Below are positions 4,903-58,969 of a DNA stretch of 60,714 bases, one piece after another. The notes under the pieces were generated by a model. The model was given only the letters and a program-made list of their open reading frames with translations. It did no database searches and had not been told where the DNA came from. This stretch comes from a virus (Duplodnaviria; Caudoviricetes): positions 1 through 60,714 of IMG/VR virus record IMGVR_UViG_3300042890_000355; one strand, written 5' to 3'. The first letter of the stretch is position 1; each line of letters starts with the position of its first letter. Position numbers and translations under genes: made by a program.

Positions 4903-5402
4903 TTCTTGCTCCAGCTACGTGAGCCAAACCAGAAACCTATGATGCCTCCAAGCATTGCCATCTCATCCGTGGAAAAAATGATGTCGGACAAGCGGATCAG
5001 GTCTTCCATACTCATCACAAGCCGTGGGTTGCTGTAAACGTAGTAGGCAATCCACGCATTAATGGCACACAGTTCCAGCACAAAAATGTAAGTCACCATC
5101 GGGCGCACAGTGCCCACAAAGTTCACCACCCAGCGGCTGGCTTCTTCCATAATCTTCTTGTCATGGTCATAGGCCGCAACAGTCATTTCTGCGTCCGTCT
5201 GCATGGCAATCTGGTCGGTGCGAATCTCTTCCATGCGTTCTTGGGCGGCAAAACCCTGCGCCATCATCTGTAGCTGTAGCTCTACTTGGACACGGGCAAG
5301 CGCCAACTCATGCTTTTGGTCAGCCTTGTTCTGGAAGAAGTCTAGGAGTTTGGGCAAGCCTGATATTAGCAAGCCGCCAAGGGTTGAGAATAAAGATAGC
5401 AT
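4899..5402 (-). CDS. Holin-like membrane protein (3TM holin type)
   Basis: VRPMVTY and C-terminal IIGFWFGSR motifs, hydrophobic segments, overlaps the lysozyme start. Confidence 0.7.
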   Translation of the reverse strand: MLSLFSTLGGLLISGLPKLLDFFQNKADQKHELALARVQVELQLQMMAQGFAAQERMEEIRTDQIAMQTDAEMTVAAYDHDKKIMEEASRWVVNFVGTVRPMVTYIFVLELCAINAWIAYYVYSNPRLVMSMEDLIRLSDIIFSTDEMAMLGGIIGFWFGSRSWSKK

Positions 5403-46475: not shown

Positions 46476-46659
46476 TCTTTATCTCCCTGATTACTCTCTT
46501 GATAACCGCAGCAGTTACCATGAATCTTTCAGCAATAACTCTCATAGACAAACCCTCTTTCATAAGCACCTCAACCCTGCGTTTATCCACTTGTGTAGCA
46601 GGACGACCCGACCCTTTCCTTGCTCCACCGTGCGTTAGTTTCTCTTCGTTATACCTCAT
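46459..46659 (-). CDS. Small HTH DNA-binding protein
   Basis: AGGAG RBS, start MRYNEEK; HGGARKGSGRP then GLSMRVIAERFMVT HTH. Confidence 0.75.
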   Translation of the reverse strand: MRYNEEKLTHGGARKGSGRPATQVDKRRVEVLMKEGLSMRVIAERFMVTAAVIKRVIREIKNGQTK

Positions 46660-47119
46660 TGCTTGTCTCCTGTTATACCTGCTACGTTTTACAATATTAT
46701 TGCACAGTTCTGGCAGTTTGTGCCGTCTTGTGTAAAAAAGTGGTAGGTGGTTTCCCGTAGTACCCGTTTTGGGCATAGAGAGAGCCGCTACCTCTGAACC
46801 CCCCTCTGGTGGAGAGGAGGAACTCAGTGAGGCAGTGCTCCGAAAACGCGACTCATCTGTCCTACGTTTTCCAAGTTCGGTGGAATGCCGGATTCTCTTT
46901 CTATAAGGGTGGCGCTTTAACGGTACGCCCTGACAGCTAGTCTTACCTCCCTACGGCTCAATTGGTTAGTTACCCTCTTTCACACTGGCCACGAATCATT
47001 TGCCAGTACCGCTCGGCTCTCTTAGGAAGCGGCCCTTGACTGCAAGGGTAAGGTCATATCTGGGTACCGGAGATTTCTGCCGTATAAGCTAACGCGCCCT
47101 GACGGTTACTGTAGGAGGA

Positions 47120-47331
47120 GAGACTGGAACTGCTCACATGAAGCAGTGTTTCGTCAACTAAGAAAGGGCAATGTGAAGGCGCTAACCCATCACCAGTCCC
47201 AGTCTCAAAACAAAAAAGGCCGCTTACAACTGCGTCCGGTCGGAGCCTTAACTAATACCTCTCTCTACTAGGGTATTAGGTAAAGCGGAACGCATGTGTA
47301 AACGGCCTCAACTTATTGCCTCCGACAGCAA
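47120..47331 (-). ncRNA. Candidate structured leader/antisense-type RNA with terminator
   Basis: Long interrupted hairpin 47217-47308 followed by a T-tract; its bulge CTCCGAC is complementary to upstream loop GTCGGAG; second domain closed by a 13-bp stem 47120-47206. Confidence 0.55.
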
Positions 47332-47338
47332 CGAGCGG

Positions 47339-47369
47339 ATTATAACCACAACTGTTCCGGCCTTGTCAA
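47339..47369 (-). promoter_or_regulatory. Putative leftward sigma70 promoter
   Basis: Perfect TTGACA and TATAAT hexamers with an atypical 19-bp spacer; 20-bp palindrome adjacent at 47377. Confidence 0.55.
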
Positions 47370-47398
47370 CTCACGTAGAAAAATTAAAAGTTTTCTGC

Positions 47399-47429
47399 AA
47401 AAAAAAAGTGGCCTCAGTTACGAGGCCAC
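47399..47429 (-). terminator. Rho-independent terminator
   Basis: GTGGCCTC-6nt-GAGGCCAC followed by T9 on the minus strand. Confidence 0.85.
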
Positions 47430-47491
47430 CAAAGTTCATCAAAGGAAAAAAGCAACTCACAAAACAACCAGCCGTCTGGATTGATGCCATC

Positions 47492-47779
47492 TTACTCGCA
47501 GCGTTTAAGAATTTCAAGTGCTTCTTGCGCCGAATTCACTATTACCAGCATCCCACCTGTCCACTCATCAAAGAACTTCTGCTCGGCCTCGGTTAGTTTC
47601 CTAGCTGACGGTACTTTGTCCCCGTCTTTGACCTCCATAAGCACCGTATAGCCCTTGTAAGCCACTAAAAGGTCAGGGATGCCATCACCCTGCGAGATGA
47701 TCCTTACGAACGCTCCTGCGCCCCGTAATGCGTCCACGATTTTGTTCTGGTTAGCGTCGATTCTGTTGGCGTATCTCAT
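47492..47779 (-). CDS. VRR-NUC / PD-(D/E)XK endonuclease (resolvase-like)
   Basis: GIPDLLV...LMEVK...LTEAEQKF. Confidence 0.85.
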   Translation of the reverse strand: MRYANRIDANQNKIVDALRGAGAFVRIISQGDGIPDLLVAYKGYTVLMEVKDGDKVPSARKLTEAEQKFFDEWTGGMLVIVNSAQEALEILKRCE

Positions 47780-47817
47780 GGCTTCTCCTACCTGATAAAA
47801 ATATTTTAACTTACCTG

Positions 47818-47846
47818 TTGCAAAATTAAAATGTAGCAGGTATAAT
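47818..47846 (+). promoter_or_regulatory. Sigma70 promoter of the pentamer array/RAMP operon, overlapped by an inverted repeat
   Basis: TTGCAA(47818)-17bp-TATAAT(47841); TACCTGTTGCA...TGTAGCAGGTA inverted repeat 47812-47842. Confidence 0.85.
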
Positions 47847-47862
47847 CAGTTCCAACCTATCT

Positions 47863-48326
47863 GGTTTAATGTGGTCTGGCAAGTTATGGCGGGACGAGGC
47901 GGTGCCCGGTCGGGCATGGCAGGGAACTGGTAACAGTCGATAGGGAATTAGCAATAGTTCTCCTTCGAGTGTTAGGCACGGTCGGGCAAGTCTCGGCACG
48001 GTGAGGAGAGGCGGGGATAGGCAGGGTACGGCACGGAAAGGTGCGGCAGGGAGCTAGAAATAGTCGATAGGGTATTGGCAACAGTACCACTTCGAGTGTT
48101 AGAGGAATGGCTGGATGCGGTCAGGCGAGCAAAGGTCAGGTTTGGAGGGGTAAGGCAAGGGCTGTTTACAGCGGGAAGTTATTTAACAAGATAACTTTTC
48201 GGTGGTAACACCACTAGGTTGGGTCTGGTGTGGCAAGGCGAGGAATGCTTAGGAAGGGTCTGGCAAGGGCTAATGTAGCGGCTATTAGATTGGCAACAGT
48301 CTTATGGTCGATGCAAATTGTGCATC
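47863..48326 (+). ncRNA. Four-unit putative guide-RNA array: phased GG(Y/A)NN pentamer tracts each followed by hairpin handles (VIPR-like)
   Basis: Tracts 47863-47922 (12), 47975-48049 (15), 48104-48158 (11), 48217-48266 (10); 40/48 pentamers start GG and position 3 is never G; each tract ends GGCAR-GG then stem-loops, several with GNRA loops. Confidence 0.85.
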
Positions 48327-48342
48327 AATTAAAGGAAACAAA

Positions 48343-48912
48343 ATGAAATCTATTAAAGTAAAACTCTCAGGCTCATCTGCTTTACTCATGCACTCTGATC
48401 GCTTTGCGAACCCGTTAGACCCACTAACTAAGGCTCACAAAGAACTGACAGGCAAGCGCAAGAAAACTGACGATGACCATATCGCCATCGCTAGAAGTGA
48501 ATTCATTGGTGGCTGTTATTGGAATGAAGACACTGGCTTCTTTATTCCTGCACAAAACCTAGACTCATGCCTGATCGCGGCGGCTAAGCTTCAAAAGCTT
48601 GGCGTTAAATTCAAGCAGGGCGTACAGGTATTGGAAGACGAGCTACCCATCGACGGCTTTAAGTCCGTCACTCCCGAGAAGCTTTGGGAAAACCCAAAGA
48701 ACGTAGATGCCCGTGGCGTTAAGGTAGGCATGGCCAAGATCATGCGCTACCGCCCCATCTTTCGCAACTGGTCACTGTCTGCCACTGTGATGGTGAATGA
48801 AGATGTAGTTAACCTCAATGAAGTTAAGAAAGCTTTGGTTGACGCTGGCAATTTGATTGGCTTGGGTGATTACCGTCCCCGCTTTGGCCGCTTTGATGTG
48901 GAGTTTGCATGA
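48343..48912 (+). CDS. Stand-alone Cas7/RAMP-like protein (putative Vipr-type effector), 189 aa
   Basis: AAAGGA RBS and ATG 48343; beta1 IKVKLSGSSALLMH, FFIPAQNLDSCL (RAMP IPxxxLK-like), C-terminal G-loop IGLGDYRPRFGRFDV. Confidence 0.8.
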   Translation: MKSIKVKLSGSSALLMHSDRFANPLDPLTKAHKELTGKRKKTDDDHIAIARSEFIGGCYWNEDTGFFIPAQNLDSCLIAAAKLQKLGVKFKQGVQVLEDELPIDGFKSVTPEKLWENPKNVDARGVKVGMAKIMRYRPIFRNWSLSATVMVNEDVVNLNEVKKALVDAGNLIGLGDYRPRFGRFDVEFA

Positions 48913-49391
48913 GCGACAATCCAAAACTATTTCCCGCTTGGAAGCAGGCAGTTAAAACTTTATTGGACAGCGGCCTTACATACGGAAGCGTACTCAAGCG
49001 CAGTTACATTTCCGAGTTGTGTGATGTGCCAAAGCCAGTAGACATTGACGATGTTCGCAGGTATGACCTTGAAGTGCTTCGCTGCATCACAGAGATCAAA
49101 GACATTCTGCTAACAGCCCACTGCATGCTAATGGTCAGTGACCATGCAGGCAACTACATCATCATCGAGCCTGAGTCACAAACTCAACACGCTGTTGATG
49201 CAGGTGTTAAAGCAATCAGTCGAGAGATGAAGCGTATGGCTATGGGCGTGAGCTTTACCAAGACTGATTTACTCACAGACGAAGGCCGTAAGAAAAACGC
49301 AGATGCTCAGGCAAAGATCTCAAAGCTGGCCGGAATGCTAAGCATTGAGAAGCGTGAGCTTCAGCGTATATCCGACAGGAGTCAGCCATGA
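48909..49391 (+). CDS. Accessory protein coupled to the RAMP gene, function unknown
   Basis: ATGA overlap with the RAMP stop; possible winged helix (GNYIII) followed by a long helix. Confidence 0.7.
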   Translation: MSDNPKLFPAWKQAVKTLLDSGLTYGSVLKRSYISELCDVPKPVDIDDVRRYDLEVLRCITEIKDILLTAHCMLMVSDHAGNYIIIEPESQTQHAVDAGVKAISREMKRMAMGVSFTKTDLLTDEGRKKNADAQAKISKLAGMLSIEKRELQRISDRSQP

Positions 49392-53614: not shown

Positions 53615-56600
53615 CTACTTCATTGACTTACGAACATCTTCAGCTTGTTTAGCTAGCATGGAGATCAACTCTTTCATCTGGTCAATCTGCTCTCGCTTGG
53701 TAGCCCCGTCCATACCCGTGTCTGCTGTGACCACTTGAATCTGCTTACGGATGTTAGCCATCTGCTTAGATGTCTGGGTGTACATCTTCTGTAATGCAAT
53801 CTTGTCACCCTTCTCCTCATAAATCTGCTGGACTTTATCTATCTCACCAATCTCAGAGTAATGACGCATATCCGCAAAGGCTTGCTGAATCTGTTTGTTG
53901 TTCTCGTAGAACGAAGTGGTGTAGAAAGATTGGTTAGCGGGAAGAGACTTAACAAATCCAAGACTTGCTCTATCCATCCACTTAGTATCTGGGTACTCAC
54001 CCTCTTTAAACGGGGCAACAGCGTACATAGAAGTGGTAGCTGCTGTGCCGCCGAGCCAGCCGAAGTAACCCTTAATAGCATAGTCCACCTGAACTGGGCT
54101 TAACTCTGCTTTTTCTGGCAAAGCTATGTTTAATACAGGAGCCAAAGCCAAAGCTAGTGGACTGGTGTTCTCTGTCTTACGCTCAGCTTTAGACAAGGCT
54201 TCCATACCCGCAGTCTCAATAGGTGAGCCGGTGAAGCTATCCTTATTGGAGTACAGATCAACAATAGGTTTGAAGATCTGCGGCAACGGGTTCATCGCAA
54301 ATGTATCCCACACCATACGGCTAAGGGCATCTGTGAATTGCTTACCTTCTGCATTCTCATCAAAGATCTGCTCGGCTGTACGCTCGGCAATAGTTCCAAG
54401 AGCACCAATCTCAAATGGCTTAGGAATACGAAGAGCCGCTTCCATGCCGGGTAACTTGATCCACCAGAAGTTATCCCGATCCCAGTTGTCCCGCTTTTGG
54501 TACTCTTCGTCGTCTTTAAATCCATAGTACAAAGCAAGAGAGGCAAGGCACACAGCACCAGAGATGATAGAGAACGCTTCTGCTTTCTTCTTATCACTCA
54601 GATCCAACTCTTTACCTGTCATTGAGTTGTACAGGACACGGCCAGTAGGTACGATGCCATCACGACCAAGCTTGTACAGACCTTGAATACGGGCATTCAT
54701 GAACGGTACGACCTGAGTCAAGTAACGGAACGCACTCCATGAACCTTGCATAGAGAAGTCCATCAAGTCGCGAGCTTCGTAAGAGGCTTGTAAGTGAGAT
54801 AGACCCTGCTCTCGTAGCTGGTTGTAAAGCGCCATGCGGTTAGCAGCTTCAGACTTGTTACCCGCATCTTCGTATGCAGACCATAGCTTAGCCAAACCAG
54901 CTTTGATCTTGTCTGGTGTATCTAGAATGTCGGCCTCTTTAACACCTTTGGCCAGTAATCTTTTAATTAACTTTGCCTGATTACCTTCATAAGCGGTACC
55001 AAAGTTAAAGATAGCACCACCGGCCAGAGCAGAAATGTGTGCAGGGTTGTTCTTATCTGTGGCTACCCAGCCCTCAACCACGTTGGCAAAAGGATTCTTC
55101 TTCAAGCCGGACACGGCCATAGCCTGAACAGAATCACGGAACAAGTTGTTTACTTTAAACGCAGGAGAGATGGTAACGCCGTACTGCAAGATGTTCTTGA
55201 AGTCACGAGACACATCAAGGAACTTAGACTTTGGCCCCATGTATCCGATAGAGGTGATCGACTCAAGCAAGAGAGGATCTTTAATGGTGTAGTAAACAGG
55301 GTTGCCGTCTTCCATAACCTTTACGGTATCTGGGCCGGCTTCTGTGGCTTTCTCTACGGCATCTAGCTTCTCGGCATCCTTGACCGTAGTCACAGCGGCT
55401 TGGTTCTTCATAGACGCAGACAGGATATGACTCCAGTTACGCAGAGTGTTTTCCATCAAGTCACCGAATGGTCGCTCTCCTCCGCCTTTCAAAGCTTTAG
55501 AGAACTGCTGACGGGTCAAACCTGCTGAAGTCTGAGCACCCTGAAGATCACCGTCTTCCATCTGACGATAGAAAGGAATGTAGTAAATATCCCGAACAAA
55601 GTTGTCGTAGCTGAACTGGTCAATTAGACCTTGATCTAAAGCCACATCCAAGACGGAACGGTTTAGATTATTCATATCTTTAAGGACAGCAGCATAGACC
55701 TCAGCACGGGGCTTGCCGTTAATCGTACCTTCAGACAACTGCTTGCGATTGGCCACCATGTAGTCCATGTCAGGACTGCGTGATTTCTTTTCTGGAGGTA
55801 AATTAGATTCACGGTTCAACGCAACCCACATCTGGTAGCGGTCTACCTCAGAGCCAACAGGCTTGAGTGTCTCAATCAGACCCTTGGTGTTGGGTTTAAT
55901 GTTCAATGCACCGCCGTCGTTAAAGACATGACCGTTAAACAAGATACCCTCAAGAGCGCCGTCAACAGTCTTAGACAGACGGGCTTGCATGTAGCCGACA
56001 GGCGAGTAGTCTTTGATCGTTCTGTACTGGTCTGCAATACCCTGAGCCAGACGTTGCCAGAAACGATCCTGCATGTCAGTAATCTTCTCAACAATCGTTC
56101 TAGTCTGTGGCTTGAAGACACGGTTAGCCGCATCTGTAAACTCTTGGTTTACACCCTGCATAGTCTCAGCGGCAAGAGGCTTTTGTTTCTGTAAGGCAGT
56201 AGAGACTTTCTGCTTTACCTCGCTAACAGACTTAGGTATCTCCATCTGGTCTGTCATCTCTGAGTAGTCAACTTCACCCTTATCAACTTTTACACCTTTA
56301 GGCTGTTTAGTCTGAGCAAGCCTGTCTACCAAGTTCATAACTTCGGTAAGAGCGTTAACATCTTTAATACCAAGCAACTCTGCAACCATACGAGTAAATG
56401 CTGTCCATGCACTGCGACGACCGCCATAGGAGATTTGCATTAACTCATATTGGAACTCTGGATTAGTCATTGCCTCGGCAGTGAACTCACGCTCGTTAGT
56501 CAGGCCGTAGAAGTCTTTACCTTGACGGCGCAGTTCTTTCTTAACGTGCTTGTATAGCTTTTCAATCTGTTCAACAATAGGTTTCTGACGCTCAGTAGGA

Positions 56601-58969
56601 TAACGCTGTGCCTTAGAGATCAATCCATGTAGTGTTTCGTGAGCGTTTGTGTGCTCATCGCCAGCGTAAGCCTTAGCCATCTGAATGGAGTCATCAGCGT
56701 AACGGTACACGCCAGCCACACCAGCACCTACGTTACCCGGCTTCTTCAGCTTAATCTTTGTAGCTACGCCACGACCCAACTCACCAATGCGCCGAATAGC
56801 TGGGTTCTTACTCTTAGCCAAAGTCTCAGCTAATTGTGCAAAGTTTCCAGCGTCATTAGCAGCACGAACCTCTAAGTTGTTTGATGTAATAGGCATCCTT
56901 GCTTTGAATTCAGCAAGGTTTTTAGGCATCTCAGTACTTGGAGTAGGTGGTTCAACTTCTACAGGAGGAGGTTCCACTGGAGGGGGAGGTTCAACCACAG
57001 GAGGTCTACCTGAAGTACCGGGAGCAGGAGGTTCCATCTCACCATATACCTGAGTAGCAGGCTTGGTAACAGGAGGACGCTCTGGGCCTTCTGGTGTAGG
57101 TGTTAGCGTAGCACTAACAGGCAATGTGCGATCACCACGAGGCTTACCAACTTCAGCAGAAATAAACCAAGGTTCACCGTTACCTTGATAGTTCAACGGC
57201 AAAGGTTTGCCGGCACGTTGCTCGGCGGCAATAGCAGCTTCTACATCTTCACGAGTAACGATACCAGACTCAAAGTCCTTAACCAAACGCATAGACGCAG
57301 GCGTATTAGTACGTCGAGCAATCTCAATGTATGCGTTAACTGGGTCAATGATAGGCGTGGACTCAGGTTTGTTAATAGCCGTGCCTTCCAAGCCTTTAGT
57401 AAACTTAACTGGTACGTCCAAAGATTGAATAGCAAACTTACCCGCATCTGTTGGGTGAGGAACAATAGTCAGGCTATTAGGATCACCGCCTTGGTTTTGA
57501 AGCATGTTACGCATCACCAACAAACGGTTCTTTGCGGCACGTTCTTCAAGGGGACGGTTGTCTACAATCTTAGGTACAGGTGTGTCTTCCACGGTCACAT
57601 CTGCTGGCATAACGCCGGGAGTTTTAGATGACGCACCAGTAGGAAGTCCTGCCTCTAAACGCAAGCGATCAATCTCAGCTTGCTTGGCTTCCAACTCTGC
57701 ACGAGGTGTAGCTTGTGGCATCTGCTCATTCAAGCTAGGCTGTACCACGGGAGTAGAAGCGGCGCGAGCAGCCTTCTCTTGTGGTGATTCAGGAAGCGTA
57801 CCAGCAAGAGCCTTTGCTTCTTCATCGGCTTTTTGCTGGAGCATTAACAGACGCTGACGATTAGCTTCCTCAGATGTCAGCATCTCAGGAGTAGTTTCTT
57901 CTGGACGGGTAACACCAGTAATAGCCTCAACTTGCTGTTGCAACGCAGGCTGAACAACAGGTTGCTCTGGAGGAGGAGGTGGTGGTGGCTCAATCTCAGG
58001 AGCAGCAGGACGACGAGCCAAGCCAGCCGCACCACCCAAACCTACACCACCGATAGTGGCCATAGCCGCAGCTTCACCCAGACCTTCAGTCAAACTCTGC
58101 TCAGGTTTAACCTGTTGCATGGCCAAGTTAGAAACAAACTTACCGCCAACCTCTTCAGGAATCTCACCCACTGTCTCACCAACAGCAGTACCGCCAGCCG
58201 TTCTAAGACGACCAGTAAGACCAGCCGCTCCTTTACCGGGAACACCTGCCAATACTTCCTCAAGCTGACGAGCACCGGGTAGGCGCTGAGCCAAGAGAGA
58301 AATAACACCGGCGGAAGCACCAGCTTGACGGGCTAAAGTTAAAGCACCCTGAGCGGCTTCAGTATCAGAAGCACCTTTACTCTTAAGTTCTTTGTAGATG
58401 TTCTCGTATGCGTTAGCACCTACGTCAGCACCTTGCTGTACACCACCAGCACCAACCGCGCCGGAGACAGCCGCTTTACCAGCCGCAGCTTCGCCCGCAC
58501 CCAGACCTCTAGCCGCCATACCAACGCCACGAGCAGCGCCAAATGGGACTAATAGTTGTGGAGCTTGCTCAGCCAAGAATGTAAGGAGCAGTGCAGGATC
58601 TTTAACAGTCTCACCAAGTGCAGTTCCAAATGCTTGGAACTGACCTTCCTTAGCAGACTCAGCAATCTTCCTTGCCCGCTCAGCCTCACGAGCCTTAAGC
58701 CCAGCAGACTTCATCTCCTCAGCATACTTCTGGAGATCTTTACCAAGCTCCATAGAAGTACTGTCCTGCATGTTGCCAGTCACCAAACCAGCAAGCTGGC
58801 CGGGTAAAGCAACAAGAGAACCTATACCACCTACGACACCAGCACCGATGTCCTTGGTAGCTTCCCCAAACGTTCTCTCTGTAGTAGCAGGAGCTTTAGC
58901 TTTGGGCTGGAATTTTGACCATGGCCCCTCTTGGGCAGCATAAGATTCCCAAGGTTTATTATCGGCCAT
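53615..58969 (-). CDS. Large internal virion/ejection protein with zincin-like HExxH and LPD38-like C-terminal domain
   Basis: 1784 aa; AHETLH...EFTAEA; VPFMNARIQG and RIPKPFEIG motifs. Confidence 0.75.
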   Translation of the reverse strand: MADNKPWESYAAQEGPWSKFQPKAKAPATTERTFGEATKDIGAGVVGGIGSLVALPGQLAGLVTGNMQDSTSMELGKDLQKYAEEMKSAGLKAREAERARKIAESAKEGQFQAFGTALGETVKDPALLLTFLAEQAPQLLVPFGAARGVGMAARGLGAGEAAAGKAAVSGAVGAGGVQQGADVGANAYENIYKELKSKGASDTEAAQGALTLARQAGASAGVISLLAQRLPGARQLEEVLAGVPGKGAAGLTGRLRTAGGTAVGETVGEIPEEVGGKFVSNLAMQQVKPEQSLTEGLGEAAAMATIGGVGLGGAAGLARRPAAPEIEPPPPPPPEQPVVQPALQQQVEAITGVTRPEETTPEMLTSEEANRQRLLMLQQKADEEAKALAGTLPESPQEKAARAASTPVVQPSLNEQMPQATPRAELEAKQAEIDRLRLEAGLPTGASSKTPGVMPADVTVEDTPVPKIVDNRPLEERAAKNRLLVMRNMLQNQGGDPNSLTIVPHPTDAGKFAIQSLDVPVKFTKGLEGTAINKPESTPIIDPVNAYIEIARRTNTPASMRLVKDFESGIVTREDVEAAIAAEQRAGKPLPLNYQGNGEPWFISAEVGKPRGDRTLPVSATLTPTPEGPERPPVTKPATQVYGEMEPPAPGTSGRPPVVEPPPPVEPPPVEVEPPTPSTEMPKNLAEFKARMPITSNNLEVRAANDAGNFAQLAETLAKSKNPAIRRIGELGRGVATKIKLKKPGNVGAGVAGVYRYADDSIQMAKAYAGDEHTNAHETLHGLISKAQRYPTERQKPIVEQIEKLYKHVKKELRRQGKDFYGLTNEREFTAEAMTNPEFQYELMQISYGGRRSAWTAFTRMVAELLGIKDVNALTEVMNLVDRLAQTKQPKGVKVDKGEVDYSEMTDQMEIPKSVSEVKQKVSTALQKQKPLAAETMQGVNQEFTDAANRVFKPQTRTIVEKITDMQDRFWQRLAQGIADQYRTIKDYSPVGYMQARLSKTVDGALEGILFNGHVFNDGGALNIKPNTKGLIETLKPVGSEVDRYQMWVALNRESNLPPEKKSRSPDMDYMVANRKQLSEGTINGKPRAEVYAAVLKDMNNLNRSVLDVALDQGLIDQFSYDNFVRDIYYIPFYRQMEDGDLQGAQTSAGLTRQQFSKALKGGGERPFGDLMENTLRNWSHILSASMKNQAAVTTVKDAEKLDAVEKATEAGPDTVKVMEDGNPVYYTIKDPLLLESITSIGYMGPKSKFLDVSRDFKNILQYGVTISPAFKVNNLFRDSVQAMAVSGLKKNPFANVVEGWVATDKNNPAHISALAGGAIFNFGTAYEGNQAKLIKRLLAKGVKEADILDTPDKIKAGLAKLWSAYEDAGNKSEAANRMALYNQLREQGLSHLQASYEARDLMDFSMQGSWSAFRYLTQVVPFMNARIQGLYKLGRDGIVPTGRVLYNSMTGKELDLSDKKKAEAFSIISGAVCLASLALYYGFKDDEEYQKRDNWDRDNFWWIKLPGMEAALRIPKPFEIGALGTIAERTAEQIFDENAEGKQFTDALSRMVWDTFAMNPLPQIFKPIVDLYSNKDSFTGSPIETAGMEALSKAERKTENTSPLALALAPVLNIALPEKAELSPVQVDYAIKGYFGWLGGTAATTSMYAVAPFKEGEYPDTKWMDRASLGFVKSLPANQSFYTTSFYENNKQIQQAFADMRHYSEIGEIDKVQQIYEEKGDKIALQKMYTQTSKQMANIRKQIQVVTADTGMDGATKREQIDQMKELISMLAKQAEDVRKSMK

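What the first reader, a model, noticed from the sequence alone, without database searches (positions are those of the whole stretch)
47923..48326. Two classes of structured handles with compensatory base changes delimit the array units
Seen: handle 1 is ACTG-GTAA-CAGT then CGATAGG-GAATTA-GCAA-TAGTTC-TCCTTCGAGTGTTA. Handle 2 is GCTA-GAAA-TAGT then CGATAG-GGTATTG-GCAA-CAGTACC-ACTTCGAGTGTTA. They share flanks and GNRA loops while the stem pairs covary. Handles 3 and 4 both follow GGCAAGG and have three hairpins: GCTG/CAGC, GGGAAGTTATTT/AGATAACTTTTC, GGTG-GTAA-CACC; and GCTA/TAGC, GGCTAT.AGATTG-GCAA-CAGTCT.ATGGTC, GATGCA/TGCATC. Inference: selection acts on RNA structure, the handles are processing or 3'-capping signals, and the array grew by unit duplication followed by guide diversification. 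The final hairpin ends 4 nt before the RAMP RBS, which could couple processing to translation.
Basis: partly seen in the sequence, partly recalled or inferred. Interest (0 to 1): 0.75.

Follow-up and report, generated by a model that had tools for sequence, protein, structure and literature searches.

The report
VIPR guide-RNA array with structured tails
The four "handles" are the folded 3' tails of four guide RNAs of a phage VIPR system, a CRISPR-like RNA-guided DNA-silencing system first described in 2026, so the finding is real but belongs to a known kind.

Summary
Window 47870-48326 holds four units. Each is a run of 11-15 YNNGG pentamers followed by a hairpin module. They lie between a sigma-70-like promoter (47818-47846) and a 189-aa gene (48343-48912). 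That protein matches the solved "SUSP1 Vipr protein" (PDB 36pp, E=7e-47). The locus is therefore a type II-like VIPR system: a vrRNA array, vipr and a vap-like gene. VIPR is described in 2026 bioRxiv preprints, which report that each vrRNA is a GGY/NN repeat tract capped by a structured 3' tail. The "handles" are those tails.

Across 53 loci I found 116 distinct tails. Compensatory base changes support helices P1 and P2, and P3 where it is present (covariation score 0.40-0.48, against 0.13-0.16 for shuffles and at most 0.125 for slid controls). This clade's tail is three hairpins. It is not the hairpin plus pseudoknot reported for SUSP1.

There are three variants rather than two:
- A has no P3 and can form an alternative extended helix.
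- B has a GNRA-capped P3.
- C was called in 31 loci, always as the last unit, next to the vipr ribosome-binding site.

Units are shared and shuffled among related phages; they are not recent local duplicates. RNA ends, processing and targets were not shown here. This is a new member of a known kind, of modest interest.

The parts
47818..47846 (+). Sigma-70-like promoter (TTGCAA, 17-nt spacer, TATAAT) that would transcribe the array and the operon. An 11-nt inverted repeat (47812-47822 / 47832-47842) overlaps it.
   Evidence: 10 of 12 consensus matches, and no other + strand promoter or terminator between 47850 and 48343; inverted repeat I5. Similar promoters stand just upstream of the arrays in related loci. 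Function is inferred.
47870..47924 (+). vrRNA1 guide tract: 11 YNNGG pentamers, 3 of them degenerate.
   Evidence: pentamer parse. It fell below my caller's 75% GG threshold, so it was added by eye.
47925..47974 (+). Tail 1, variant A: P1 47926-47937, P2 47938-47967, 3' segment 47968-47974, no P3.
47975..48051 (+). vrRNA2 guide tract: 15 YNNGG pentamers.
48052..48101 (+). Tail 2, variant A: P1 48053-48064, P2 48065-48094, 3' segment 48095-48101.
48104..48160 (+). vrRNA3 guide tract: 11 pentamers. The same guide, 96% identical, is unit 4 of L004.
48161..48212 (+). Tail 3, variant B: P1 48161-48172, P2 48173-48200, P3 48201-48212 (GNRA loop).
   Evidence: The variant-B covariance model R1 matches 48159-48215 at 71.9 bits, its only match in the window.
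48217..48268 (+). vrRNA4 guide tract: 11 pentamers.
48269..48326 (+). Tail 4, variant C (terminal): P1 48269-48279, P2 48280-48309, P3 48310-48326. It ends 4 nt before the AAAGGAAA ribosome-binding region.
48343..48912 (+). vipr: 189-aa RAMP-like Vipr protein.
   Evidence: PDB 36pp_D 'SUSP1 Vipr protein', E=7e-47, aligned 1-188 to 1-189, with a shared C-terminal glycine-rich loop region; phrog_4652, E=2.7e-67; 712 homologues at E<=1e-5.
48909..49391 (+). vap-like accessory gene (160 aa).
   Evidence: phrog_5926, E=5.7e-16; weak similarity (E=5e-7, 19% identity over 139 aa) to the gene after vipr in the SUSP1-clade phage VpaE1. The same gene pair is found in Medea1 and LESphi2.

Best explanation
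The region is the guide-RNA array of a phage-borne type II-like VIPR system. One early promoter transcribes four vrRNAs in tandem as the leader of the vipr-vap operon. Each vrRNA is a tract of 11-15 YNNGG pentamers followed by a structured 3' tail. The tails are the 'handles'.

From the published work on SUSP1 and P. fulva VIPR: Vipr protomers polymerise along the pentamer tract, holding each GGY. The NN dinucleotides read double-stranded DNA with a one-base skip and silence transcription.

Shown here: the tail is an RNA structure under selection. It has a 4-bp hairpin P1 directly after the last GG, a long variable hairpin P2, and usually a third hairpin P3.

Inferred: the tail marks where the filament ends, caps and protects the 3' end of the mature vrRNA, and so sets the unit boundary, as the 3' pseudoknot does in SUSP1. 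Variant A lacks P3. Instead its last 7 nt can pair back onto the P1 loop and 3' arm, which would also bury the 3' end. Variant C is the form used next to the vipr start.
For: Identity of the system:
- The protein matches solved SUSP1 Vipr.
- The pentamer composition of 134 unique tracts is G 0.95, G 0.91, Y 0.82, then two near-random positions (entropy 1.94 and 1.99 bits). This matches the published GGY/NN code.
- Tracts are strand- and locus-specific. 178 were called on the vipr strand and 4 on the other, in 52 sources.
- In 11 whole phage records, 47 of 49 tract calls lie just upstream of vipr on its strand.
- A vap-like gene follows vipr.

Tail structure:

| Set | Distinct tails | Cells paired | Pairs changed on both sides | Covariation score | Shuffle mean | Shuffles reaching it | Slid controls |
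|---|---|---|---|---|---|---|---|
| Variant A | 31 | 100% | 6 of 15 | 0.416 | 0.155 | 0/500 | <=0.11 |
| Variant B | 35 | 95.1% | 7 of 17 | 0.400 | 0.132 | 0/500 | <=0.125 |
| Variant C | 21 | 95.0% | 11 of 23 | 0.413 | 0.149 | 0/500 | <=0.122 |
| Remote clades (Vipr 47-72% identical) | 31 rows, 2 of them minus-strand echoes | 93.1% | 11 of 17 | 0.483 | 0.158 | 0/500 | <=0.10 |

- The remote-clade alignment was fitted to the model, so it leans towards the structure.
- G-U pairs are frequent (for example U-G in 30 of 31 and 21 of 21 at one P2 position), and fold z-scores are stronger on the + strand. Both point to RNA, not DNA.
- An all-against-all column scan recovers the proposed pairs and no convincing pseudoknot.

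Function as a 3' cap: the discovery preprint says the tail parallels the crRNA repeat handle. [quoted passage not shown]
Against: - No RNA ends, processing or protein binding were observed for this phage. The metatranscriptome contigs I laid cannot show ends or strand.
- P1 and P3 of variant B are nearly invariant, so within that variant they rest on conservation only. Their support comes from the other variants.
- The sequences are related to one another, so shuffle controls overstate significance. The slid controls carry the main weight.
- The tail here does not look like the SUSP1 pseudoknot, so carrying its role over is an inference.
- No DNA target of the four guides was found, so guide function in this phage is not demonstrated.
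Confidence: 0.85

Rival explanations
1. The tails are mainly nuclease recognition sites. They would resemble CRISPR repeats cut by Cas6, with Vipr itself or a host RNase cutting at or beside them. Capping would be secondary.
For: - Vipr is a RAMP, as Cas6 is.
- Units abut closely. Tail and next guide are 0-4 nt apart in the window, so ends must be made within a narrow stretch.
- Other VIPR types use hammerhead ribozymes between vrRNAs, so unit separation is a real need.
Against: - No cleavage evidence here.
- The preprint texts searched contain no statement on cleavage or maturation for type II: 'matur', 'RNase' and 'precursor' gave 0 hits, and the single 'cleav' hit concerns ribozymes.
- The three variants differ at their 3' ends, where a common cut site would be expected.
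Confidence: 0.3
2. The hairpins are cis-regulatory leader elements of the operon, acting in attenuation, antitermination or control of vipr translation. They would not be parts of mature small RNAs.
For: - The whole array lies between the promoter and the first gene.
- Variant C is always the unit next to the ribosome-binding site. In 22 distinct sequences its last hairpin lies 15-27 nt before the ATG.
Against: - No U-tract terminators lie in the array.
- In other members the same unit type lies downstream of vipr-vap (L050, L051, Medea1). For SUSP1 the units are separate ~100-nt RNAs that co-purify with Vipr.
- The Shine-Dalgarno sequence is outside the hairpin.
Confidence: 0.07
3. The palindromes act at the DNA level, as operators, recombination sites or cruciforms that delimit cassettes.
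For: - Units are gained and lost at the guide/tail junctions among relatives. The conserved junction sequence could serve recombination.
Against: - Many G-U pairs would be A-C mismatches on the other strand.
- Folding is clearly weaker on the - strand.
- The stem sequences vary while pairing is kept. That is the mark of RNA structure, not of a protein-binding DNA site.
Confidence: 0.03

Closest known systems
Type II VIPR systems (Escherichia phage SUSP1; Pseudomonas fulva prophage), bioRxiv 10.64898/2026.04.26.720920 and 10.64898/2026.04.26.720927
   Same: - A Vipr protein, full-length match to the solved SUSP1 protein.
- 11-15 YNNGG pentamers per guide, within the published 9-16.
- A conserved structured 3' tail after each tract.
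- An accessory gene directly after vipr.
- Phage-borne, with the vrRNAs upstream of vipr as in the P. fulva locus.
   Different: - The tail fold differs. Here it is three consecutive hairpins, about 50-58 nt, with no supported pseudoknot. In the SUSP1-clade phage VpaE1 each tract is followed by a short stem whose loop matches a downstream segment, as the published pseudoknot predicts.
- Three tail variants sit in one array with one vipr gene. One of them is specific to the last position.
- Vipr is only about 41% identical to SUSP1-clade proteins and 49% to the Pseudomonas prophage LESphi2.
- I could not see the supplements, which may show P. fulva tails.
Class 1 CRISPR crRNA with its repeat-derived 3' hairpin handle (Cas6-bound)
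   Same: A variable guide capped by a conserved structured handle. A RAMP protein polymerises on the guide. Units lie in tandem under one promoter.
   Different: - No near-identical direct repeats: TRF found no array, and the window's tails are 5-77% identical to each other.
- Guides are not free sequence but a fixed GGY scaffold with two variable bases per five.
- No adaptation genes were noticed. The next genes are an exonuclease, Erf and SSB.
Type III toxin-antitoxin RNA arrays (ToxIN-like; recalled from general knowledge, not tested by a family search)
   Same: Tandem structured RNA units directly upstream of a small protein gene in phage-related DNA.
   Different: - ToxI-type repeats are near-identical and short, and a terminator separates them from the toxin gene.
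- Here the units are 105-127 nt and diverged, and there is no terminator.
- The protein is a Vipr homologue.
Lambdoid nut / HK022 put leader RNAs (recalled from general knowledge)
   Same: Hairpins, some with GNRA-like loops, just downstream of an early phage promoter.
   Different: Those are single sites that act on RNA polymerase. Here the hairpins come once per pentamer tract. In other members they are also found downstream of the genes.

Membership tests
VIPR system (type II-like) | Vipr protein: a minimal RAMP with an RRM core, glycine-rich loop and thumb | tested here: met
   Sequence match to PDB 36pp_D 'SUSP1 Vipr protein', E=7e-47, over residues 1-188, including the C-terminal glycine-rich loop region. 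The fold itself was not predicted here.
VIPR system (type II-like) | vrRNA guide: 9-16 tandem YNNGG repeats with conserved GGY and hypervariable NN | tested here: met
   The window's tracts have 11, 15, 11 and 11 pentamers. Composition over 134 unique related tracts is G 0.95, G 0.91, Y 0.82, with NN entropy 1.94 and 1.99 bits. The caller required GG, which inflates the first two figures.
VIPR system (type II-like) | Conserved structured 3' tail after each repeat tract | tested here: met
   Covariation is supported in three variants and in remote clades. The fold differs from the SUSP1 hairpin plus pseudoknot.
VIPR system (type II-like) | vap accessory gene adjacent to vipr (vap1-like, predicted DNA-binding) | tested here: inconclusive
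   A 160-aa gene follows vipr with a 4-nt overlap. It hits phrog_5926 (E=5.7e-16) and is weakly similar to the gene after vipr in VpaE1 (E=5e-7, 19% identity). It has no Pfam or PDB match. DNA binding was not tested.
VIPR system (type II-like) | vrRNAs expressed as about 100-nt RNAs that co-purify with Vipr | not testable with these tools
   Only assembled contigs of metatranscriptomes were available. They cover relatives of the array and vipr but show no ends.
VIPR system (type II-like) | Natural DNA targets that match the NN code with a one-base skip | tested here: inconclusive
   Scans of the window, the fetched loci and 11 whole related phage records gave nothing above shuffled-guide controls. 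Public collections were not scanned.
CRISPR array | Near-identical direct repeats that alternate with unique spacers of free sequence | tested here: not met
   TRF found 0 arrays. The window's tails are 5-77% identical to each other. The 'spacers' are period-5 GG tracts.
Rfam RNA families | Match to any curated covariance model | tested here: not met
   No match at gathering score in the whole window. Only chance-level matches at E up to 5 in 46500-49000.

The most novel reading that the evidence does not exclude
The tail is not one fixed cap. It is a small family of interchangeable modules with distinct roles.

- Variant A would be a two-state element. P1 and an extended P2 helix exclude each other, and both show compensatory changes. 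The extended form is 4.4-4.9 kcal/mol more stable. It could switch after transcription or on Vipr loading.
- Variant C is always the unit next to the vipr ribosome-binding site. It could let a Vipr filament on the last vrRNA, still joined to the mRNA, throttle vipr translation. That would be an autoregulatory link between guide loading and effector supply.

The same guide occurs with different tails, so tails and guides recombine freely among phages.
Probability: 0.2. Interest if true: 0.5.

Novelty: new member of a known kind. Interest (0 to 1): 0.3.

Why it matters
The finding places this freshwater phage in the VIPR family. It extends what is described about vrRNA tails. In a large clade, with Vipr 47-100% identical to the window's, the tail is a covariation-supported three-hairpin module rather than the SUSP1 pseudoknot. 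The structure preprint could not resolve such a 3' marker in its P. fulva complexes.

A defined secondary structure gives concrete mutants for testing what the tail does: filament boundary, 3' protection or processing. It also gives covariance models for annotating vrRNAs, which Rfam 15 does not yet hold.

The unit-level shuffling of guides and tails bears on an open question: how VIPR arrays acquire new guides without an adaptation module.

Tried and rejected
**Searches that found nothing**
- Rfam: nothing at gathering score, and only chance-level hits at E up to 5.
- Tandem Repeats Finder: no array.
- blastn of the intergenic region against 50,697 phage records: no match.

**Covariance model R1 (built on variant B)**
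- It found only tail 3 in the window at E<=1. It is too sequence-specific to serve as a general tail model within the window.
- With filters off it did find 30 + strand tails in remote loci.

**RNA evidence**
- Four RNA-library runs kept as contigs were laid. One of them is flagged as probably DNA.
- The contigs are of relatives, mostly 90-99% alike. They cover the array and vipr but cannot show ends, strand or level.
- Two contigs from two studies begin at 48267 and 48287. These positions differ, and assemblies break at the repeats, so I draw nothing from them.

**Target search by the published NNx rule**
- The window's four guides against the window and all loci gave best scores of 15/22 and 19/30. 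Shuffled-guide maxima were 16-17/22 and 21/30.
- 118 unique guides against 11 whole related phage records gave best hits of 15/16 and 18/20. One shuffle per guide reached 0.8 or more for 19 of 118 guides, with a maximum of 0.89. There is therefore no credible target among close relatives and no self-target.
- I did not scan the public collections with NNx patterns. Those patterns would be rebuilt, joined sequence that I should not type.

**Ideas dropped**
- I first considered a CsrA/TRAP-like protein sponge, G-quadruplex arrays, R-loop origins and type III toxin-antitoxin RNA. All were dropped once the protein matched Vipr.
- A pseudoknot like SUSP1's: not supported by the column-pair scan.

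- Supplementary files of the papers were closed, so figs S8/S9 and data S3/S4 of the discovery preprint may already show related tails.
- No structure prediction or complex prediction was run.

Full report
**What is there**

The window is a virus record of 60,714 bases, estimated 96% complete. Bases 47780-48342 are a 563-nt gap. It lies between a 95-aa gene on the minus strand and a plus-strand operon. The operon encodes:
- a 189-aa protein (phrog_4652),
- a 160-aa protein (phrog_5926),
- a PD-(D/E)XK exonuclease,
- an Erf-like annealing protein,
- an SSB-like protein.

A promoter-like site (TTGCAA, 17-nt spacer, TATAAT; 10 of 12 matches) lies at 47818-47846. No other plus-strand promoter or terminator was called before the first gene. 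Downstream of the promoter the gap consists of four units. Each is a G-rich run with a strict five-base period, followed by a hairpin module. The hairpin modules are the four "handles" of the finding.

**Identity of the system**

The 189-aa protein matches one solved structure, PDB 36pp chain D, "SUSP1 Vipr protein". The match has E=7e-47 and is aligned end to end, including the C-terminal glycine-rich loop region. [quoted passage not shown]

- **Discovery preprint (10.64898/2026.04.26.720920).** I read the outline, all of Results, the Discussion, two Methods sections and searched passages. It reports that Vipr is an ancestral RAMP. vrRNAs are 9-16 YNNGG repeats followed by a conserved structured 3' "tail". 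The NN dinucleotides read double-stranded DNA with a one-base skip. Type II loci carry vipr plus a vap gene.
- **Structure preprint (10.64898/2026.04.26.720927).** I saw the start of the abstract and searched passages. It describes Vipr protomers polymerising along the vrRNA and a terminal pseudoknot that caps the RNA's 3' end in SUSP1. It states that the P. fulva complexes lacked such a 3' marker.
- **Satellite-competition preprint (10.64898/2026.10.15.759431).** I read the outline, the Introduction and searched passages. It treats a shared tail as what makes a vrRNA competent for Vipr complex formation.
- **Language-model preprint (10.64898/2026.10.21.760802).** I saw searched passages only.

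The window fits this description.
- Its tracts have 11, 15, 11 and 11 pentamers.
- Over 134 unique tracts from related loci the five positions read G 0.95, G 0.91, pyrimidine 0.82, then two nearly random bases. My caller demanded GG, which inflates the first two figures.
- Tract calls are strand-specific: 178 on the vipr strand and 4 on the other, in 52 sources.
- They are locus-specific: in 11 whole phage records, 47 of 49 calls lie just upstream of vipr on its strand.
- The 160-aa gene is weakly similar to the gene after vipr in the SUSP1-clade phage VpaE1 (E=5e-7).

**The handles as RNA structure**

I fetched 50 related viral loci and three named phages. The SUSP1-clade phage VpaE1 was used only for the tail comparison. 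The other 52 loci plus the window give the 53 loci counted here. I called 179 tracts. A P1 hairpin was found after 159 of them. These gave 116 distinct tails. The tails fall into three variants plus a set from remote clades:

| Set | Distinct tails | Features |
|---|---|---|
| A | 31 | P1 and P2, then a 7-nt 3' segment; no P3 |
| B | 37 | P1 with a UUWA loop, P2, and a 4-bp P3 with a GNRA loop |
| C | 21 | P1 with a 3-nt loop, P2, and a 6-bp P3 |
| Remote clades | 27 | Same three-hairpin plan |

Plain MAFFT alignments of A, B and C were scored against the structures I wrote down.

| Variant | Cells paired | Pairs changed on both sides | Covariation score | Shuffle mean | Best slid control |
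|---|---|---|---|---|---|
| A | 100% | 6 of 15 | 0.416 | 0.155 | 0.110 |
| B | 95.1% | 7 of 17 | 0.400 | 0.132 | 0.125 |
| C | 95.0% | 11 of 23 | 0.413 | 0.149 | 0.122 |

In every case 0 of 500 shuffles reached the observed score.

Support is uneven across helices.
- P2 covaries richly in all three variants.
- P1 covaries in A (A-U 19, G-C 8, G-U 4 at one pair; G-C 24, A-U 7 at another) and slightly in C.
- P3 covaries at one pair in C (G-C 16, A-U 5).
- P1 and P3 are nearly invariant within B.

A covariance model built on B found 30 plus-strand tails in loci whose Vipr is 47-72% identical to the window's. On that alignment 93.1% of cells pair, 11 of 17 pairs change on both sides, and the score is 0.483 against 0.158 for shuffles. 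That alignment is fitted to the model and leans towards the structure.

Three further points:
- Frequent G-U pairs, together with fold z-scores of -4.1 to -6.3 on the plus strand against -1.2 to -2.7 on the minus strand, show that the structure belongs to the RNA of the vipr strand.
- The sequences are related to one another, so the shuffle controls are generous. The slid controls and the variety of pair types are the firmer evidence.
- A scan of all column pairs recovered the proposed pairs and gave no convincing pseudoknot.

In the SUSP1-clade phage VpaE1, by contrast, each tract is followed by a short stem whose loop matches a downstream segment. That is what the published pseudoknot predicts. 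This clade therefore has a different tail fold.

**Three variants, and position**

Variant C was called in 31 of 53 loci. In all 31 it is the last unit before vipr, and it never occurs at an internal position. Arrays that mix A and B occur in 4 of 53 loci: the window (A-A-B-C), L016, L023 and L030. In 22 distinct terminal tails the last hairpin lies 15-27 nt before the ATG and 5-18 nt before the Shine-Dalgarno core. The Shine-Dalgarno sequence is never inside the hairpin.

Variant A has a second possible fold. Its last bases pair with the P1 loop and 3' arm, which extends P2 by four pairs.
- These four pairs are 90-100% paired across the 31 sequences.
- They show a few compensatory changes: A-U 25, G-C 2 and U-G 1 at one pair; C-G 24, U-G 5 and U-A 2 at another.
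- The extended helix and P1 exclude each other.
- The extended fold is more stable: -19.7 and -17.5 kcal/mol, against -14.8 and -13.1 for P1+P2.

I read this as either a switch or another way to bury the 3' end. It is unexplained.

**How the array changes**

By my alignment-based measure the window's four tails are 5-77% identical to each other, but 88-96% identical to tails in other phages.
- Guide 2 recurs at 96-97% identity in L005 and L017.
- Guide 3 recurs at 96% identity in L004. There it is the last unit and is joined to a variant C tail, whereas in the window it carries a variant B tail.
- The four-way alignment shows whole units present or absent, with breakpoints at guide/tail junctions.
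- A metatranscriptome contig of a relative also replaces the stretch 48103-48261 with 34 other bases.

Units therefore move, and guides and tails recombine. This does not look like recent local duplication followed by drift.

**What was not shown**

I could not map RNA ends or show processing. I found no DNA target for the four guides in the window itself or in the fetched loci. None of 118 guides of the group had a target in 11 whole related phage records. Best scores were no better than shuffled guides. I did not scan the public collections for targets. The preprint texts I searched say nothing on how type II vrRNAs are cut out. Their supplements, which I could not open, may show tails of the P. 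fulva clade.

**Verdict**

The central inference also holds: these are structured RNA handles, under selection, that cap guide units of a RAMP-associated array. The system is already known as VIPR, and this is a new member of it. Beyond the preprints' main texts, this analysis adds:
- a covariation-backed three-hairpin model for the tails of this clade;
- the three variants, one of them specific to the last position;
- the two-state possibility in variant A;
- evidence for unit-level exchange among phages.

Noticed in passing
window 47812-47842: An 11-nt inverted repeat (82% complementary) overlaps the -35 and spacer of the array promoter. It looks like an operator for an early-gene repressor. 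Similar sequence stands upstream of the arrays in related loci.
   Followed up: partly
window 46777-47491: About 700 nt with no convincing ORF. It contains a strong terminator-like hairpin with a U-run on the minus strand (47430-47407) after the 95-aa gene. Only chance-level Rfam hits.
   Followed up: no
window 47923-47977 and 48050-48104: Variant A tails can form two mutually exclusive helices: P1, or a four-pair extension of P2. Both show compensatory changes across 31 sequences. The extended form is 4.4-4.9 kcal/mol more stable.
   Followed up: partly
window 48104-48160 versus L004 2370-2426: The same guide (96% identical) carries a variant B tail in the window and a variant C tail in L004. 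Guides and tails therefore recombine.
   Followed up: yes
L001 (Pseudomonas phage Medea1) 3995-5200: The vipr-vap pair sits between tail-assembly genes, like a moron, with no array upstream. A pentamer tract (5074-5140) and model-matched tails (5015-5072, 5139-5200) lie downstream of vap.
   Followed up: partly
L050 3623-3995 and L051 3106-3308: In these more distant members (Vipr 47-52% identical) the pentamer tracts lie downstream of vipr-vap, not upstream. Their tails are shorter and differ again.
   Followed up: no
L040 1868-2459: Six units with near-identical tails, spaced 117-132 nt start to start. The last tract runs to 42 nt before the start codon and is followed only by a short hairpin.
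   Followed up: no
window 53615-58969 (minus strand): A 1784-aa ORF just after the early operon. It was not examined.
   Followed up: no
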